Positions 25,422 through 52,539 of a DNA stretch of 64,000 nucleotides are shown here, in pieces. Under the pieces are notes generated by a model. The model was not told the DNA's origin. It saw only the letters and a program-made list of their open reading frames with translations, and did no database searches. Within the stretch, counting starts at the first letter, position 1. Each line of letters starts with the position of its first letter. This DNA is from Thermoproteota archaeon. Lineage in GTDB: Archaea; Asgardarchaeota; Jordiarchaeia; Jordiarchaeales; Freyrarchaeaceae. The position numbers were made by a program, and so were the translations under genes. The stretch covers positions 1-64,000 of the forward strand of contig JAPDJY010000053.1 in NCBI GenBank assembly GCA_029258835.1, in the 5' to 3' direction.

Positions 25422-26936
25422 TTATGGCATTGACAGCCTACCTGGGTGCATGATGAAGTTCGGGTCAATAACCTCTCTAAACCGCCTTAAGAGGTCATAG
25501 TATGCCTTAGCCCTAGCAAACGTTAGCGGGGCATGCACGTACGGGTCAGGCCTATAGTTCAGCCACCCTTTATCGAGGAATATCTCCGTAGTGACGCGGT
25601 TCACCTCCTGCACACGACGCACATCCTCAGGATCAGTATAATCGAAGCATACGATAGGCATACAAATTGCCTGGCGGCAGTGGTCAATGCTGGCTATCCA
25701 CATAACCGGAGGGAAACCATACTCCTCCAGCTTCTGATTGTAAATCTCCGCGAATTCCGCACAGTTCTTCCATGGGGTATACCAGGTAATGAACAGGAAT
25801 CCGGCGTTCCATAGCGAGTATGGGATGGCGATCTTGTTTGGTTTGCGGAGCCTGCTTTGGATTTGCTTGGGGTGTAGCTTCCACTCCTTTATTTCGTGGC
25901 CTGTTTTCGCGTTGTATTCTTTGGCTAGTTCATGTATCTTGTTAACTGTGAAGTCGAGTTCTTCTTTGCTGTGGCACCAGATCTCGAAGTTCATCCACCA
26001 TCGGGGGATGCCGAGTTTCTTGTAGAACTCGTAGTCTGTTGGGACTTTCTCCTTAGGCCATCGGGTCATGACAAGGGGCCAGTTTCCTCCCTGCACCATT
26101 ACGAGGTGGTCTGCTATGCCTAGCTCGTACTTTGACACTTCTAGGGTGAAGTCTTGCATGTCGTATGGGTTGTCCATTCCATATGCAATTATTGTCTTGT
26201 GGTGTGGGTGGGGGACTATTTTTATTGCGAGCTTGGTGATGACGCCCATTGTGCCTTGGGCTCCTAGGAAGAGGCCGTCGAAGTTTGGTCCTAACCCCCA
26301 CCTGTAGAATGGCTTTGCTCCGGGTAGAGACCAGCTTCCGGTTCTGACTATTTCGCCTGTTGGGAGTACGATTTCCATGCCTAGTACCATGTCTGCCTGT
26401 GGGCCATACCTTGCTGTGACCATGCTGAATCCTCTTTCGAGGGCGTCGCCGACCACGGTTGCGGCTGGCGGTGCACCGTCGGGAACCGGGGGAGCCCAGT
26501 CTGGGTAGTATTCTTCAGGGCAACTGAGGGATATCCTCTATGTTGCCTTTCTGAAGTATGCCCAGACTTTGCCGCTTCTTACCCCCGGCTCCAGTACGGC
26601 GTATCTTGCGTCGGTGTTGACTTCTATTATGCGGTCCATTCGTGATAGGTCTAGTAGGATTCCTCCTGGCTGTACTAGGGGGGTTGCGTATCCGCCGCTT
26701 AGTCCTCCTGCGCATGGGGTTACGGGTATGTGGTTTTCATTTGCTAGGATCAGAATTTTTCTCACTTCTTCGACGTATCTGGGTCTCACGACTACTTCTG
26801 GTACTGTTGCTTCAAGCCCCATTATCCCTCTTGAGAGGTAACTGTACCGCATCGCGATGTCTGACGAGACGAACTCTTTCCCTACTATGCTTTCCAGCAT
26901 CTTTACGATGTCAGGTGTAACTTCATTATAACTCAC
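25422..26936 (-). CDS. FAD-binding oxidoreductase (GlcD/D-lactate dehydrogenase-like); two exons 26936-26549 and 26512-25422, 492 aa spliced
   Basis: PEVVVRP, GGILLDLSRMDRI, LEPGV / VLGMEIVLPTG, GAQGTMGVIT, DPNFIMHPG. The two same-frame ORFs join when a 36-nt BHB insert is removed. Confidence 0.85.
26513..26548 (-). other. Predicted BHB-type mRNA intron (36 nt)
   Basis: TCAG-AA^A-GGCAAC...GTTGCC-CTGA-AG^A; contains the in-frame TAG; spliced junction reads YFRKYYPDW. Confidence 0.8.
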
Positions 26937-38935: not shown

Positions 38936-39437
38936 CTCCCACCTGTTTACTTAAAACATCTAGGAGGACCTTTTCAAGGATGGTTACGAGTGCTTCAAGA
39001 GACTCTTCAACTTCAGGGGATAACTTCTCACCGAGGGCGCTCTTAGGCTGAACACCTACAAATATTACGTAGGCGTTAACCGTCTCCTGTAGGTACCTTG
39101 CAACCATAGAGAGAGGGGTGTGATGAGTTGAAAATGTTACTCCTCCTAAACTTGAGATGTCTGATGTTACCACCACGTCCCCGGGGCTACCGTTGAACTG
39201 GGCTGCATCCACGAAGACTACGTGGCTGGGTTCAAAACGCCTTAAAACACCTGTAAAGTTTTCAGGCATGGTTCCTGCTTCCACCACCAGAACGTTGGCA
39301 AGTTTTAAGCGTTTAAGCCTTCTGGCAACTTCAAGCCCCACCCGGTCGTCACCCTTGAGCTCGCTTCCCACGCCTACAATAGCCACCTTGACCGCGCCGT
39401 CCAACAGCTTCTTGAGAGCCTTTATCAAGCCTAACAC
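38913..39437 (-). CDS. hycI: Hydrogenase maturation peptidase (HycI-like)
   Basis: GVGSELKGDDRVG, GTMPEN, VDAA, STHHTPL, GVQP. Confidence 0.85.
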   Translation of the reverse strand: MLGLIKALKKLLDGAVKVAIVGVGSELKGDDRVGLEVARRLKRLKLANVLVVEAGTMPENFTGVLRRFEPSHVVFVDAAQFNGSPGDVVVTSDISSLGGVTFSTHHTPLSMVARYLQETVNAYVIFVGVQPKSALGEKLSPEVEESLEALVTILEKVLLDVLSKQVGDVQVGEG

Positions 39438-39501
39438 CCATAACTCCTTAACAAAGGAAACTTTAAAACCGTTTTTAACAAAGCTGATGACGGTGGCAGA
39501 A

Positions 39502-40083
39502 ATGGAGGAGAAAACAGAGGGAGAAAGTAGGGTTCAAGAGGAACTTAGAGAAGGAGAGGAAGAGGAGAAGGTTACCGGACTCTTAGTTGACGGCGATGTT
39601 GTGATCAACGAGAAAGACGCCGAGAAAATACATGGGAAAGGCTACGGAGAGTACGAGGAAGACGGGAAACTTCACCTAGCACCCGTAGAAGCACTCCTCC
39701 TAGCAGAAAGGGGGAGACTCGTGGTGCTGGATAGTGAAGGCAGGGAGCTCACATTTAAAGAATTAGCGAAGACCTTCACCCGGAAAGACCCTAAACTATG
39801 GACGCGGTACTTGGTTTACAGGGACCTGAGAAGCAGAGGGTATGTTGTTAAGCAAGGGTTCGGAGGGGGAATAGACTTCAGAGTTTACCCTAGAGGAAGT
39901 AAGGTCGGAGAGGAAGCTGCGAAAACGCTGATATACATAGTCACCGAGGGAAAACCGATAAACCTTAAGGAGCTAGACAGAGTAACCAAGCTCGCAGTAA
40001 GCATGAGGAAGAAGCTCACAATGGCGCTGATAAACAGGCAGGGTGACGTTGTATACTACAACGTGCTACAGATGACGTTTTAA
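39502..40083 (+). CDS. endA: tRNA-splicing endonuclease subunit (probably the structural/beta type)
   Basis: LAPVEALLL, YLVYRDLRSRGYVVK, DFRVY, RKKL; the expected catalytic His is not seen. ORF-track start 39157 overlaps hycI. Confidence 0.88.
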   Translation: MEEKTEGESRVQEELREGEEEEKVTGLLVDGDVVINEKDAEKIHGKGYGEYEEDGKLHLAPVEALLLAERGRLVVLDSEGRELTFKELAKTFTRKDPKLWTRYLVYRDLRSRGYVVKQGFGGGIDFRVYPRGSKVGEEAAKTLIYIVTEGKPINLKELDRVTKLAVSMRKKLTMALINRQGDVVYYNVLQMTF

Positions 40084-47226: not shown

Positions 47227-48515
47227 ATGGGGATGACTATTTCGGAGAAGATCTTAGCGTCCCACTCGGGAAAGGAGAGGGTTGAGCCGGGTGAGATAGT
47301 TAATGCTAAGGTTGACGTGGCGATGGTCCACGAGATGCTTGGAAACCCGGCGCCTTGACGGGCTGGGCTAAACTGCGCATAGCAGACATCTACGAGGAAC
47401 TCGGCGTTGATCGCGTCTGGGATCCGAAGAAGATAGTCGCGTTGATAGACCACTGGACGCCTGCTCCAAGCATAGATGCTGCTGTTATCCATGTAACCTG
47501 CAGAAGGTTCGTTGAAAAGTATGGTGTTGAGAACTGGCTTGACATGAGAGAGGGTATATGCCACGTTGTGCTTCCTGAGAAGGGGTTTGTTAAACCCGGA
47601 GACCTTGTTGTTGGAAGTGATTCCCACACGACGACCTACGGAGCCGTTGGAGCGTTCGCTACGGGAATAGGCGCCACCGACATGGCTATTGTGCTCGCTA
47701 CGGGTGAACTCTGGTTTAGGGTTCCGTCAACGGTGAAGTTTAACATTACAGGTAGGCTTCAGCCGCTGGTTATGGGCAAGGACATAATCCTTCACATTAT
47801 AGGTGAGATAGGAGTAGATGGGGCGACCTACAAGGCGATGGAGTTCTCGGGCGAGGTTGTGAAGGAGCTCAGCATGGATGGAAGGTTCACTCTCTGCAAC
47901 ATGGCTGTAGAGGCGGGAGGGAAAGCAGGCATAATAGAGCCGGATGAAAAGACGATAGAGTGGGTTAAGGCAAGGGTCAGCCAGCCGTTCAATCCGGTCA
48001 TGAACGACCCTGACGCAGAATACGAGGAGGTCATAGACGTTGATGTTTCAGGGCTGGAGCCACAGGTGGCTAAGCCGCCAAGCCCCCAGAACACGGTGCC
48101 CGTATCGGAAGTGGAAGGGACAAAGATAGACCAAGCCTTCGTCGGGTCATGCACTAACGGTCGGCTTGAAGACCTGAGAGCGGCTGCCAAGATACTTAAA
48201 GGCAGGAAGGTCGCAAGAAACGTAAGAGCTATAATAATACCGGCCTCGAAGGAAACCTACCTAGCGGCGATGAGGGAAGGCCTCATAGAAACGTTCTTGG
48301 AAGCAGGGTGCGTAGTCTGTAATCCGACGTGTGGCCCCTGCATAGGCGCCCACCTAGGACTTCTAGCACCAGGGGAAGTTTGCATATCATCATCCAACCG
48401 TAACTTCGTTGGAAGAATGGGAAGCAAGGACGCATGGATCTATCTTGCATCGCCAGCAACGGTAGCTGCATCAGCAGTAACAGGCGAAATAACAGACCCA
48501 CGTAACTTTGTCTAA
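47227..48515 (+). CDS. leuC: 3-isopropylmalate dehydratase/homoaconitase large subunit; two exons 47227-47344 and 47374-48515, 419 aa spliced
   Basis: [11 protein letters not shown]...VDVAMVHE is in one frame. [32 protein letters not shown] and [10 protein letters not shown] are in another. The frames join when a 29-nt BHB insert is removed. Confidence 0.9.
47345..47373 (+). other. Predicted BHB-type mRNA intron (29 nt)
   Basis: TGC-TTGG-AA^A-CCCGGC...GCTGGG-CTAA-AC^T-GCG; spliced junction reads [16 protein letters not shown]. Confidence 0.88.
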
Positions 48516-50884: not shown

Positions 50885-51527
50885 CTAGAGAGTAATGTTT
50901 AGATACTGCATGATTTGAGGCGCCAGGAGTCCGAGAAGGCCTCCTGATTCAGCTTGCCATGAGAAGGTGAGGTAAGCTATCAGCGCTATGCATGCGCCAC
51001 AGAGCACAATGTTAACCGCATGGTTGTCGTAGCGCAGCTTAGCAAGGCGCAGGTCTCGCTCGTGATCCCATAGGAATGCTCTGAGACTTTCCTGCTTCCG
51101 GGGGAGGATGTAAGGCAGCGTCCTCACCCCGGTCGGATTTGCCCCCATCAAGGTTTAGGCTGTCCGCTAGCCAGTGTGAGAAGACTGCTGCGGCTGCGAT
51201 AGCGAAGTATTGAGGGACGAAGTAGCCTATCAGGAGTGGCAGCCAGATAAGTGTTAGAATACTGTGGAGCAACCCTGACCTGTGCATTACCCTTTCTCTT
51301 TTCAGAAGCTGATCTAAGTCGGGTATGATTCCGAAGAAGCCGCCCGCGGCAAGTGCTGGGACGGCGCCTGATAGGGCAAGCTGAACCTGCCACGTGGAGC
51401 TGTACCTTGAAAGATCCATCAGTGTTTGCAGCTGGGAGAGCAGTGAGCCTTTAAGCTCAGGCGATACGAAGGATATCACGAGAGCTGCTGCGGCTGCTCC
51501 CAATATAATGTGCGTGTACTTCTGCAT
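50885..51527 (-). CDS. Membrane-bound metal-dependent hydrolase (YdjM/DUF457-like); two exons 51527-51155 and 51138-50885, 208 aa spliced
   Basis: YTH, IPDLD, HRSGLLHS, SHWLADSLN|PTGV; the family motif is completed only after removing a 16-nt insert. Confidence 0.85.
51139..51154 (-). other. Predicted BHB/BHL-type mRNA intron (16 nt)
   Basis: CGGACA-GCCT-AA^A-CC-TTGAT-GG-GGGC-AA^A-TCCG; spliced junction reads ADSLNPTGV. Confidence 0.8.
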
Positions 51528-51528
51528 T

Positions 51529-51846
51529 TCAACCTCCTCCTTTCAGCGCTTTCCTAGCTTCCTCCTGCCACTTCTCAATTTGCTCAGGGGAGATGCCTTT
51601 TATCTCGTCGCCTAACTTCTTGGGATCCGCGGCGAGAAGGTCGGCAACCCTCTTCACACCGTACTTTCTGAGTTTCCTAGCGTATCCTGCCCCTATCCCC
51701 TTAATTATCTCTACGGGCGAGCTCTCCGTAACCTTTCCCTTCGCCACGGGTTCACCAAGCCCAAGCACGGTGCCTATCGCTGCGAGGAGAAGTGCCAGTC
51801 CGATGCACGCAAAATACACCAACAGATGAGAAAGCTCGAAGATCAT
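51529..51846 (-). CDS. Membrane-anchored helix-hairpin-helix protein (DUF4332-like)
   Basis: N-terminal TM; IKGIGAGYARKL...KGISPEQIEKW. Confidence 0.75.
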   Translation of the reverse strand: MIFELSHLLVYFACIGLALLLAAIGTVLGLGEPVAKGKVTESSPVEIIKGIGAGYARKLRKYGVKRVADLLAADPKKLGDEIKGISPEQIEKWQEEARKALKGGG

Positions 51847-52369
51847 TCTCCTTCAACCCCGCTCTTCTCTAACCATTTCTTTTCTCCTAAATTAAATTTT
51901 TTAGAGAAGAATTAATTTGAAGCTGCATCTTAGCACCTTACAACATATAGGAGAAAAGTTCCTCCATGGAAAAAAAAGCGAACACCACGGTAAGCGGTTT
52001 TTAGCATTAAACTTCTAGAGGAGGCGTTAACGTCAGTGTCCGACTCCTCTAAAGGCACATTATCCATTAAAATTTTCCTGTAATAGCTGGGGTTCTCTGG
52101 GTAGTTGAGCAGTAACCTCCCAGTAAGGCTTCTTGAAAGTTAGAGAGGTAGGCAGTCTACCACCTATGGTTAAGTCATGAAAGGAGGAAAACGGGAAAGG
52201 TCCCCTTCTACTTCAGAACAAAGTATAGTTGACGTTTACTCCCCCAAGACGGGGCTTTAACTCGTCTCTTTAAAAACGGGAAAATATGGGTGTAGGAAGC
52301 TAGTGGGAGGGGAAGGGGTTCACGCTTGATAGGCTTTTATGGGTAAATGTGGAGATTTTGGTCTGTCAA

Positions 52370-52482
52370 GCGTTTCCCCATCATCGAGGCGTACGCCTCT
52401 AATGGGGATTTCAGGGTAACCCCCGGAGCCCTGCATCCGAAGGTTCCGCCCCCATTAGGCCACCCTGTGGCCAGATCAGCGC
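52370..52482 (-). ncRNA. Structured repeated element, copy 2 (tnpB 3'-end/omegaRNA-like or unknown ncRNA)
   Basis: Stems GGCCAC/GTGGCC, CTAATGGGG/CCCCATTAG, CAGGG/CCCTG, GAGGCG/CGCCTC; core shared with 3000..3097; TTAAATA about 25 nt upstream on the minus strand. Confidence 0.5.
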
Positions 52483-52539
52483 TCACAAACACTCACCAAA
52501 TATTTAACTGTTTCGCAAGGCAGGGTGCCCCCAGCCTTA

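What the first reader, a model, noticed from the sequence alone, without database searches (positions are those of the whole stretch)
51139..51154. 16-nt minimal intron splitting the metal-binding motif of a membrane hydrolase
The family motif SHxxxDxx(T/N)PxG is split across two frames. The minus-strand insert folds as helix GCCU/GGGC, bulges AAA and AAA, a 2-bp CC/GG stem with a 5-nt loop, and exon pairing CGGA/UCCG (BHL-like). Removal gives CTA A|AT CCG (DSLNPTGV) and a 208-aa protein. Its size resembles the 14-24 nt tRNA introns in this window, which hints at a shared pool of mobile mini-introns (inference).
Basis: partly seen in the sequence, partly recalled or inferred. Interest (0 to 1): 0.85.

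Follow-up and report, generated by a model that had tools for sequence, protein, structure and literature searches.

The report
Tiny tRNA-type intron in Asgard gene
A 16-base insert that breaks a membrane-hydrolase gene in an Asgard archaeon (Jordarchaeales) has the shape cut by the tRNA-splicing enzyme, and is most likely an intron removed from the messenger RNA, one of several in this genome; no RNA data could be found to prove it.

Summary
On the minus strand, a YdjM-family gene (50885-51527) is broken by 16 nt (51139-51154). All 8 orthologues in related genomes, and the closest public orthologue, lack exactly these bases. Removing them restores SHWLADSLNPTGV and a 208-aa protein.

The insert forms a bulge-helix-bulge (BHB) core: GCCU/GGGC, two AAA bulges, and cuts after the second bulge base. 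About 1% of random inserts would do so here.

Its G-run is 5, 6 or 7 in 14 public contigs of the same species, giving inserts of 16, 17 or 18 nt, and the length follows strain haplotype. It is the only indel in 3.3 kb of coding DNA. Exon 2 remains under purifying selection (dN/dS 0.09).

I confirmed frame-breaking BHB inserts in EF-1alpha, kae1 and three other genes. Three are conserved across genera, two of them with compensatory changes. Two EndA genes and RtcB are present.

Best reading is an EndA/RtcB-spliced mRNA micro-intron, recently gained (about 0.8). No transcript evidence exists.

Earlier notes from this scan flagged the same phenomenon on other contigs of this genome.

The parts
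50885..51527 (-). YdjM-family (PF04307) membrane metal-dependent hydrolase gene, interrupted. It follows the upstream HHH_5 gene (51529-51846) with a 1-nt gap.
   Evidence: Orthologues of 194-208 aa are named 'metal-dependent hydrolase' in Jordarchaeales/Freyarchaeota MAGs.
51155..51527 (-). Exon 1 (124 codons plus 1 nt), ending ...GAC AGC CTA A
   Evidence: It is 80-83% identical to same-family orthologues.
51139..51154 (-). The 16-nt insert, a candidate BHB micro-intron (ACCUUGAUGGGGGCAA). It is 17 nt and 18 nt in other strains.
   Evidence: Absent from all 8 orthologues and from the closest orthologue L122. The length variants are shown.
50885..51138 (-). Exon 2 (2 nt plus 83 codons plus stop), starting AT CCG ACC GGG GTG
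   Evidence: dN/dS is 0.09 against the closest insert-less orthologue.
51157..51160 (-). 5' strand of the central 4-bp helix (GCCU), lying in exon 1
51154..51156 (-). 5' bulge AAA, with the predicted cut between 51155 and 51154
   Evidence: The cut position follows the EndA rule, which is established knowledge; the register was derived from tRNA 37/38 introns.
51145..51153 (-). Inner stem-loop CC-UUGAU-GG
51142..51146 (-). The G5 run, which is G6 or G7 in other public assemblies of the same species
51141..51144 (-). 3' strand of the central helix (GGGC), lying in the intron
51138..51140 (-). 3' bulge AAA, with the predicted cut between 51139 and 51138
51163..51166 (-). Outer exon-exon helix, 5' strand CGGA. 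It is separated from the central helix by 2 unpaired nt (CA).
51134..51137 (-). Outer exon-exon helix, 3' strand UCCG
39157..40083 (+). One of the genome's two splicing-endonuclease (EndA-family) genes: 308 aa, with the N-terminal and catalytic domains at residues 140-300. It is the presumed cutting enzyme.
26513..26548 (-). A second BHB insert in this window: 36 nt, containing a TAG, in a 492-aa FAD-oxidase-like gene
   Evidence: The same site is occupied by 24, 27 and 22 nt in three other genomes, with a compensatory change. It is absent in 6 genomes of the sister family.
47345..47373 (+). A third BHB insert in this window: 29 nt, frame-breaking, in an aconitase/LeuC-like gene
   Evidence: It is conserved at 29 nt in three other genomes and is about 33 nt in five sister-family genomes (tblastn spans); the two junctions read (L099, L100) show a 33-nt insert with an in-frame TAG. 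The central helix changes in a compensatory way.

Best explanation
The 16 nt at 51139-51154 (minus strand) are an archaeal bulge-helix-bulge (BHB) micro-intron inside the coding region of a YdjM-family hydrolase mRNA of a Jordarchaeales (Asgard) archaeon.

Proposed mechanism:
1. The pre-mRNA folds locally into outer helix CGGA/UCCG, central helix GCCU/GGGC flanked by two AAA bulges, and a small inner hairpin.
2. The tRNA-splicing endonuclease cuts after the second base of each bulge. The genome has two EndA paralogues, one of them in this window.
3. RtcB ligates the exons to CUA-AAU-CCG.
4. This restores the family motif SHxxxDxxNPxGV and a 208-aa protein.

The intron was gained recently in this species lineage, because all relatives examined lack it. 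Its G-run has since drifted in length to 16, 17 or 18 nt, which is tolerated because the insert is removed before translation.

Shown here: the insert, its exact absence in orthologues, the BHB geometry, the allele series, exon conservation, presence of the enzymes, and equivalent inserts in essential genes.

Inferred: the cutting and ligation of this RNA.
For: 1. Exact 16-nt gap in 8 of 8 orthologues and in the closest public orthologue. The spliced product is colinear with them over 208 aa.

2. BHB core with the cut register that restores the ancestral junction. The chance of this is about 1%. The core stays the local MFE structure in all three alleles.

3. Fourteen public contigs of the same species carry G5 (5 contigs), G6 (6 contigs, one at 32.6x coverage) or G7 (3 contigs), so two of the three alleles break the frame. 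None carries any other disabling change.

4. The alleles follow haplotypes.

5. In a 4.4-kb alignment every other indel is intergenic. Four other G/C runs of 5-6 in coding DNA are invariant.

6. dN/dS is 0.07 for exon 1 and 0.09 for exon 2.

7. The same genome has frame-breaking BHB inserts in genes that cannot be pseudogenes. These are EF-1alpha (43 nt inside the P-loop, CGGC/GCCG, 10-bp inner helix) and kae1 (14 nt at QGPGL|GPCLR, split at that site in the 5 genomes searched from two families).

8. The two other inserts in this window are conserved in position across genera. Their lengths vary (36/24/27/22 nt and 29/33 nt) and both show compensatory base-pair changes.

9. Of the 12 insert lengths I measured exactly, 5 are multiples of three, close to the one-third expected without frame constraint.

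10. A motif-free comparison with 1.18 Mb of a relative found one more private BHB insert (23 nt, contig C4).

11. Two EndA genes and RtcB are present. Asgard EndA is reported as the broad-specificity (alpha-beta)2 type (PMC5829648).

12. Freyarchaeia have introns in 92-95% of tRNA genes (PMC11291895).
Against: - No spliced transcript, circular intron or peptide has been seen.
- The inner stem is only 2 bp.
- The outer helix is offset by two unpaired bases, so the motif is relaxed rather than the strict hBHBh' form.
- In a 48-nt context the BHB is not the MFE fold and the region is not unusually stable (z -0.45).
- The variable site is a homopolymer, which is a mutational hotspot whatever its function.
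- The G7 allele is in frame, so an insertion-bearing protein could be made in those strains without any splicing.
- The insertion may be young relative to the divergence used for dN/dS (dS about 1.1), so that test has little power.
Confidence: 0.8

Rival explanations
1. The insert is a real protein-level insertion, 18 nt or 6 aa (LDGGAN) in the G7 allele. Its G-run slips, so G5 and G6 strains are OFF or truncated variants. This would be a phase-variable or decaying locus with no splicing.
For: - The G7 allele gives an intact 214-aa ORF in 3 assemblies.
- The length change sits in a homopolymer.
Against: - A run of 5-7 G is short for a contingency tract.
- The alleles are stable within haplotype clusters across independent samples rather than mixed.
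- The 6 aa fall inside the conserved H-x3-D-x2-N-P-x-G motif, and the Pfam match of the G7 protein stops at the insertion (profile 1-111, against 1-156 for the insert-less orthologue).
- This reading does not explain why the insert boundaries form a BHB in splice register (about 1% by chance).
- It does not explain why the same architecture interrupts EF-1alpha and kae1.
Confidence: 0.1
2. The gene is a recently inactivated pseudogene. A random 16-nt insertion broke it, and the BHB resemblance is coincidental.
For: - The insert is private to this species lineage.
- The gene is not essential.
- The frame is broken in 11 of 14 contigs.
Against: - There is no second lesion in any of the 14 contigs, although the strains differ by about 0.8%.
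- Exon 2 has dN/dS 0.09.
- The BHB is in the exact splice register.
- The genome demonstrably tolerates such inserts in essential genes.
Confidence: 0.08
3. The frame break is a sequencing or assembly error in a homopolymer.
For: The window comes from a MAG (91 contigs), and several of the contigs have low coverage (2.7-7x).
Against: - The whole 16-18 nt insert, not just one base, is absent from orthologues.
- Each run length is reproduced by 3-6 assemblies from different samples and assemblers, one at 32.6x.
- Run length co-varies with linked SNPs.
- Comparable runs in neighbouring coding DNA never vary.
Confidence: 0.02

Closest known systems
The cbf5 pre-mRNA intron of Crenarchaeota (Watanabe et al. 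2002; Yokobori et al. 2009, PMC2738675)
   Same: It is a BHB-type intron inside a protein-coding region, cut by the tRNA-splicing endonuclease. It is associated with hetero-oligomeric, broad-specificity EndA and shows a gain/loss pattern among relatives.
   Different: - cbf5 was the only coding-region case on record as of PMC7714728 (2020).
- Here the host is an Asgard archaeon and the gene is a non-informational membrane hydrolase.
- The intron is only 16-18 nt and is one of several per genome.
- It is polymorphic in length within the species.
- cbf5 splicing was shown at the RNA level; this one was not.
Non-canonical tRNA introns of Freyarchaeia/Atabeyarchaeia and Thermoproteales (PMC11291895; bioRxiv 10.64898/2026.10.13.758758)
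   Same: The lineage is the same, the presumed machinery is the same, the sizes are short (13-15 nt tRNA introns in this genome), and gains are recent and lineage-specific.
   Different: Those introns lie in tRNA genes. Neither paper reports mRNA introns: the preprint has no mention of mRNA or cbf5, and PMC11291895 discusses introns only in tRNA genes.
The HVO_1309 5'-UTR BHB intron of Haloferax volcanii (PMC7714728)
   Same: It is an mRNA that is a substrate of the archaeal splicing endonuclease.
   Different: It lies in the untranslated leader rather than the reading frame, so it does not decide the protein sequence.
Unconventional HAC1/XBP1 mRNA splicing in eukaryotes (IRE1 cut, then RtcB or Trl1 ligation)
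   Same: It works alike: a short, frame-changing intron (26 nt in XBP1) is removed by a structure-specific endonuclease and a tRNA ligase, without a spliceosome.
   Different: The endonuclease is different (IRE1, not EndA) and the recognised structure is different (twin stem-loops). It is stress-regulated. Whether the intron here is regulated is unknown.

Membership tests
Archaeal BHB intron (EndA substrate) | A central 4-bp helix flanked by two 3-nt bulges on opposite strands | tested here: met
   GCCU/GGGC (one G-U pair) with AAA and AAA bulges. The core is retained in the G6 and G7 alleles.
Archaeal BHB intron (EndA substrate) | Flanking helices on both sides (strict hBHBh') | tested here: inconclusive
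   The inner helix is only 2 bp (3 bp in the G6 allele). The outer 4-bp helix is separated from the core by 2 unpaired nt, so this is a relaxed form. Relaxed forms need broad-specificity EndA (PMC5829648).
Archaeal BHB intron (EndA substrate) | Cutting after the second base of each bulge and joining the exons gives a functional product | tested here: met
   In silico only. The product is colinear with 9 orthologues and restores the SHxxxDxxNPxGV motif.
Archaeal BHB intron (EndA substrate) | The host encodes the splicing endonuclease and RtcB ligase | tested here: met
   Two PF01974 genes (contig C1:12233 and window 39157-40083) and one RtcB gene.
Archaeal BHB intron (EndA substrate) | A spliced RNA and/or the excised (circular) intron is observed | not testable with these tools
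   No RNA run was listed for this stretch. The only runs that could be laid were DNA contigs.
Archaeal BHB intron (EndA substrate) | The insert evolves as non-coding sequence: length free of the mod-3 rule, with the structure kept | tested here: met
   - 16, 17 and 18-nt alleles exist.
- It is the only coding-region indel in 4.4 kb.
- Sister inserts show compensatory changes and lengths of 36/24/27/22 nt.
YdjM / PF04307 membrane metal-dependent hydrolase | A match to the family profile across the conserved H-x3-D-x2-(T/N)-x2-G region | tested here: met
   - Exon 1 scores E 1.4e-9 over profile positions 1-108.
- The insert-less orthologue P0001 covers profile 1-156.
- The in-frame G7 protein's match stops at the insert, at profile 111.
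- The spliced protein itself was not scanned, because it has no reference by which to submit it.
Phase-variable (contingency) homopolymer locus | A long slippage-prone tract with ON/OFF mixtures inside populations | tested here: inconclusive
   The tract is only 5-7 G, and each length is constant within a haplotype cluster across samples. Within-sample heterogeneity could not be read from contigs.

The most novel reading that the evidence does not exclude
Jordarchaeales, and perhaps other intron-rich Asgard lineages, may run a genome-wide mRNA-splicing layer that depends on EndA and RtcB.
- Many ordinary and essential protein genes would be interrupted by 14-43 nt BHB micro-introns.
- Introns would still be being gained; this 16-18 nt insert would be a species-level gain caught while polymorphic.
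- If so, correct proteomes of these closest relatives of eukaryotes cannot be read from DNA without splicing.
- In that case intron gain in protein-coding genes would predate, or parallel, the eukaryotic condition by a non-spliceosomal route.
Probability: 0.65. Interest if true: 0.9.

Novelty: new member of a known kind. Interest (0 to 1): 0.75.

Why it matters
- **State of the literature.** In the literature I could search, BHB introns inside archaeal coding regions are documented for a single gene, cbf5 in Crenarchaeota, plus one 5'-UTR case. Asgard introns of this type are reported only for tRNAs.
- **What this insert adds.** It extends the phenomenon to an ordinary metabolic or membrane gene of an Asgard archaeon. 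It would be among the shortest coding-region introns of this type proposed so far.
- **A natural experiment.** Three length alleles exist in the wild, two of them frame-breaking, and all sit in an otherwise intact and constrained gene.
- **Practical consequence.** Gene callers split or truncate such genes. Public databases hold 80-, 126-, 134-, 162- and 214-aa 'proteins' for this one gene. Completeness, pseudogene counts and metabolic reconstructions for these MAGs are therefore biased.

Tried and rejected
- **RNA evidence.** No RNA holder was listed for this gene with kind 'any' or 'rna'. Only DNA contigs could be laid.
- **tRNAs in the window.** ARAGORN with and without intron mode, Rfam at the gathering and E-value thresholds, and a T-loop pattern search all found none.
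- **Genome-wide BHB plus ORF-rescue scan.** It gave no excess over a mock-pairing control (308 against 320 hits for L<=45). Noise from adjacent genes swamps any signal, so I draw no census from it.
- **Motif-free tblastn census.** Run against 1.18 Mb of relative G001, it is insensitive to introns shared with G001 and to short exons. It missed EF-1alpha and the two other inserts in this window.
- **Non-BHB discontinuities from that census.** It turned up three, which I did not resolve: 46 nt on contig C56, 17 nt on contig C19 and 196 nt on contig C40.
- **Search for a 'mobile' intron family.** A fuzzy search for the insert found only two 3-mismatch hits, at chance level and in unrelated contexts.
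- **Global stability.** The region is not unusually stable in a 48-nt context.
- **Pfam scan of the spliced protein.** I did not run it, because the spliced sequence has no reference and I avoided typing long sequences.
- **One-base read-error idea.** A 15-nt insert giving a 5-aa insertion was considered and rejected, because no assembly shows G4.

Full report
**The observation**

On the minus strand, a 162-aa ORF (51527..51039) and an 88-aa ORF (51151..50885) lie in different frames and overlap at the stated site. Removing 51154..51139 (ACCTTGATGGGGGCAA) gives one 627-nt frame. Its 208-aa product reads ...AAAAVFSHWLADSLNPTGVRTLPY.... Exon 1 alone matches Pfam YdjM/PF04307 (E 1.4e-9).

A six-frame search of 40 related genomes found the gene in eight:
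- four in the same family but another genus, at about 80% identity;
- four in the sister family, at about 52% identity.

All eight are contiguous over the whole length. The DNA alignment shows a clean 16-nt gap in every one at this point, with ...TTT AAC|CCG ACT... in relatives. The insert is therefore real and private to this lineage. It sits inside the conserved SHWFIDSFNPTGV motif.

Names on the database orthologues place the organism in Jordarchaeales/Freyarchaeota, which is Asgard.

**Structure**

I derived the register from the canonical tRNA 37/38 intron (established knowledge). In that register each bulge lies 3' of its strand of the central helix, and the cut falls after the second bulge base. 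The RNA here reads:

CGGA-CA-GCCU-AAA-CC-UUGAU-GG-GGGC-AAA-UCCG

- This gives a 4-bp central helix (GCCU/GGGC), two 3-nt bulges, a 2-bp inner stem and a 4-bp outer helix displaced by two unpaired bases.
- The rule-based cuts (AA|A in each bulge) excise exactly the 16 nt and produce CUA AAU CCG.
- This fold is the MFE of the 39-nt context at -10.9 kcal/mol. It is not the MFE of a 48-nt context, and the region is not unusually stable.
- For shuffled inserts or random genomic 16-mers placed here, a BHB in any of the six protein-equivalent registers arises in about 1% of trials.
- It is a relaxed BHB, not a strict hBHBh'.

**Population evidence**

This is the new element of the analysis. The protein database holds near-identical products of this gene with three different readings at the insert:

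| G-run | Insert length | Product |
|---|---|---|
| G5 | 16 nt | 162 aa, as in the window |
| G6 | 17 nt | ...LDGGQIRPG*, 134 aa (a 126-aa partial call in one short contig) |
| G7 | 18 nt | in frame, ...DSLNLDGGANPTGV..., 214 aa |

- I fetched the DNA of 13 public contigs. Together with the window they give G5 x5, G6 x6 (one SPAdes contig at 32.6x coverage) and G7 x3.
- They come from different samples and from assemblies of several sources (SPAdes, k141-type and JGI contigs).
- Logan contigs of four runs from four studies gave G5, G6, G6 and G7. No allele without the insert was seen.
- The G5 contigs form their own haplotype, about 0.8% diverged from the others. G6 occurs on two sub-haplotypes, and G7 is nested in one of them. 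These are heritable alleles, not read errors.
- In a 4.4-kb alignment of five contigs, every other indel is intergenic. The only indel inside about 3.3 kb of coding DNA is the one in this insert.
- Four other G/C runs of 5-6 in the neighbouring coding sequence never vary.
- All three alleles keep the BHB core as the local MFE structure.
- Against the closest insert-less orthologue (88% aa identity), dN/dS is 0.07 for exon 1 and 0.09 for exon 2.

Two of the three alleles would destroy the protein if they were translated unspliced. Even so, no contig carries a second lesion.

**Genome context**

Earlier unchecked notes from this scan list many BHB inserts in protein genes of this genome. I tested several myself.

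- **EF-1alpha.** The single full-length copy carries a 43-nt frame-breaking insert inside the P-loop (GHVDHG|KST). It has central helix CGGC/GCCG, bulges AAU and AAG, and a 10-bp inner helix. Two relatives are contiguous there, and a third has a different insert at APGH|RDF.
- **kae1.** The match is split at the same site in all five genomes searched, from both families. The junction is QGPGL|GPCLR. In G000 the insert is 14 nt, with central helix GGGG/CCCU and a 6-bp outer helix.
- **Window insert 26513-26548.** It is 36 nt and contains a TAG. The same site is occupied by 24, 27 and 22 nt in three other genomes, with a compensatory C-G to U-A change in the inner helix and loops of 3-17 nt. It is absent in six sister-family genomes.
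- **Window insert 47345-47373.** It is 29 nt and frame-breaking in four genomes. The five sister-family loci carry about 33 extra nt at the same site by their tblastn spans. The two junctions I read show a 33-nt insert with an in-frame TAG. The central helix is UUGG/CUAA in this genome and UCGG/CCGA in its closest relatives, a compensatory change.
- **Contig C4.** A motif-free tblastn comparison with 1.18 Mb of one relative found one more private BHB insert of 23 nt.

Essential genes with frame-breaking inserts conserved across genera cannot be pseudogenes, so this lineage must remove such inserts from mRNA.

The machinery is present:
- The genome encodes two EndA-family proteins, one at window 39157-40083, and one RtcB.
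- Only about 13 tRNA genes are detectable, most of them with short or multiple introns.
- This fits reports that 92-95% of Freyarchaeia tRNA genes carry introns (PMC11291895).
- It also fits the report that Asgard EndA is the broad-specificity (alpha-beta)2 type (PMC5829648).

**Interpretation**

The best reading is an EndA/RtcB-spliced micro-intron, with confidence about 0.8. It was gained after this species lineage split from its nearest sampled relatives, and it is now drifting in length.

The rivals are:
- an in-frame 6-aa insertion with slippage or phase variation (0.1);
- a very young pseudogene (0.08);
- sequencing or assembly error (0.02).

Against the first rival, the Pfam match of the in-frame G7 protein stops at the insert, while the insert-less orthologue matches through it. 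Allele stability within haplotypes also argues against it.

The missing piece is RNA. No RNA run was listed.

**What is not supported**

- No tRNA gene is detectable in this window.
- The insert has no relatives elsewhere in the genome beyond chance. The 'shared pool of mobile mini-introns' therefore has no support from sequence similarity.
- My BHB plus ORF-rescue genome scan showed no excess over a mock control and gives no census.

**Comparison with known systems and novelty**

- The closest known case is the cbf5 mRNA intron of Crenarchaeota (PMC2738675). As of 2020 it was described as the only coding-region BHB intron, alongside one Haloferax 5'-UTR case (PMC7714728).
- Papers on Asgard, Freyarchaeia and Jordarchaeia in the searchable library describe tRNA introns only.
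- Functionally it resembles XBP1/HAC1 unconventional splicing, where a short frame-changing intron is removed by an endonuclease and a tRNA ligase.
- I file this intron as a new member of a known kind. The genome-wide system it belongs to would be a notable extension, and the scan has already flagged it on other contigs of this genome.

Noticed in passing
window 39157-40083 (+): A 308-aa EndA-family protein with an N-terminal extension of about 140 aa before the tRNA_int_endo_N and catalytic domains. A second paralogue of 190 aa lies on contig C1:12233. Two paralogues suggest a hetero-oligomeric endonuclease.
   Followed up: partly
window 26513-26548 (-): A 36-nt BHB insert with an in-frame TAG in a 492-aa FAD-oxidase-like gene. 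The site is shared with three genomes of another genus (24, 27 and 22 nt) and shows a compensatory helix change. It is absent in the sister family.
   Followed up: yes
window 47345-47373 (+): A 29-nt frame-breaking BHB insert in an aconitase/LeuC-like gene. It is conserved across the family. An insert of about 33 nt occupies the same site in the sister family, with an in-frame TAG in the two junctions I read.
   Followed up: yes
window 52315-52518; also G000 contigs C40, C21, C24, C27, C2 and others: A repeat family of about 196 nt with at least 30 copies in the genome at 76-90% identity (81-90% for the full-length copies). One copy lies just upstream of the HHH_5/YdjM gene pair. Another interrupts a protein gene on contig C40 relative to its orthologue in G001. 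It could be MITE-like or a longer intron class; its nature is unknown.
   Followed up: partly
G000 contig C27:28836-28900 (-): EF-1alpha carries a 43-nt frame-breaking BHB insert in its P-loop. kae1 on the same contig (about 22164-22188) carries a 14-nt insert.
   Followed up: yes
L016 / L015 (G003:C3:38527-38557): EF-1alpha of a related genome has a different insert, of about 30-37 nt, at APGH|RDF. This suggests independent intron gains at different sites of the same gene.
   Followed up: partly
G000 contigs C56:5428-5474 (+) and C19:27633-27657 (+): Two frame-breaking discontinuities relative to G001 (46 nt, purine-rich, and 17 nt) that do not fit a BHB. They could be true frameshifts, divergent regions or another mechanism.
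   Followed up: no
public protein databases (P0008, P0012-P0018): This one gene is represented by 80-, 126-, 134-, 162-, 169- and 214-aa 'proteins', because gene callers cannot handle the insert. P0008 also begins with MYKRQ, which I recognise (from my own knowledge, not tested here) as a translated Nextera adapter remnant at a contig end.
   Followed up: partly
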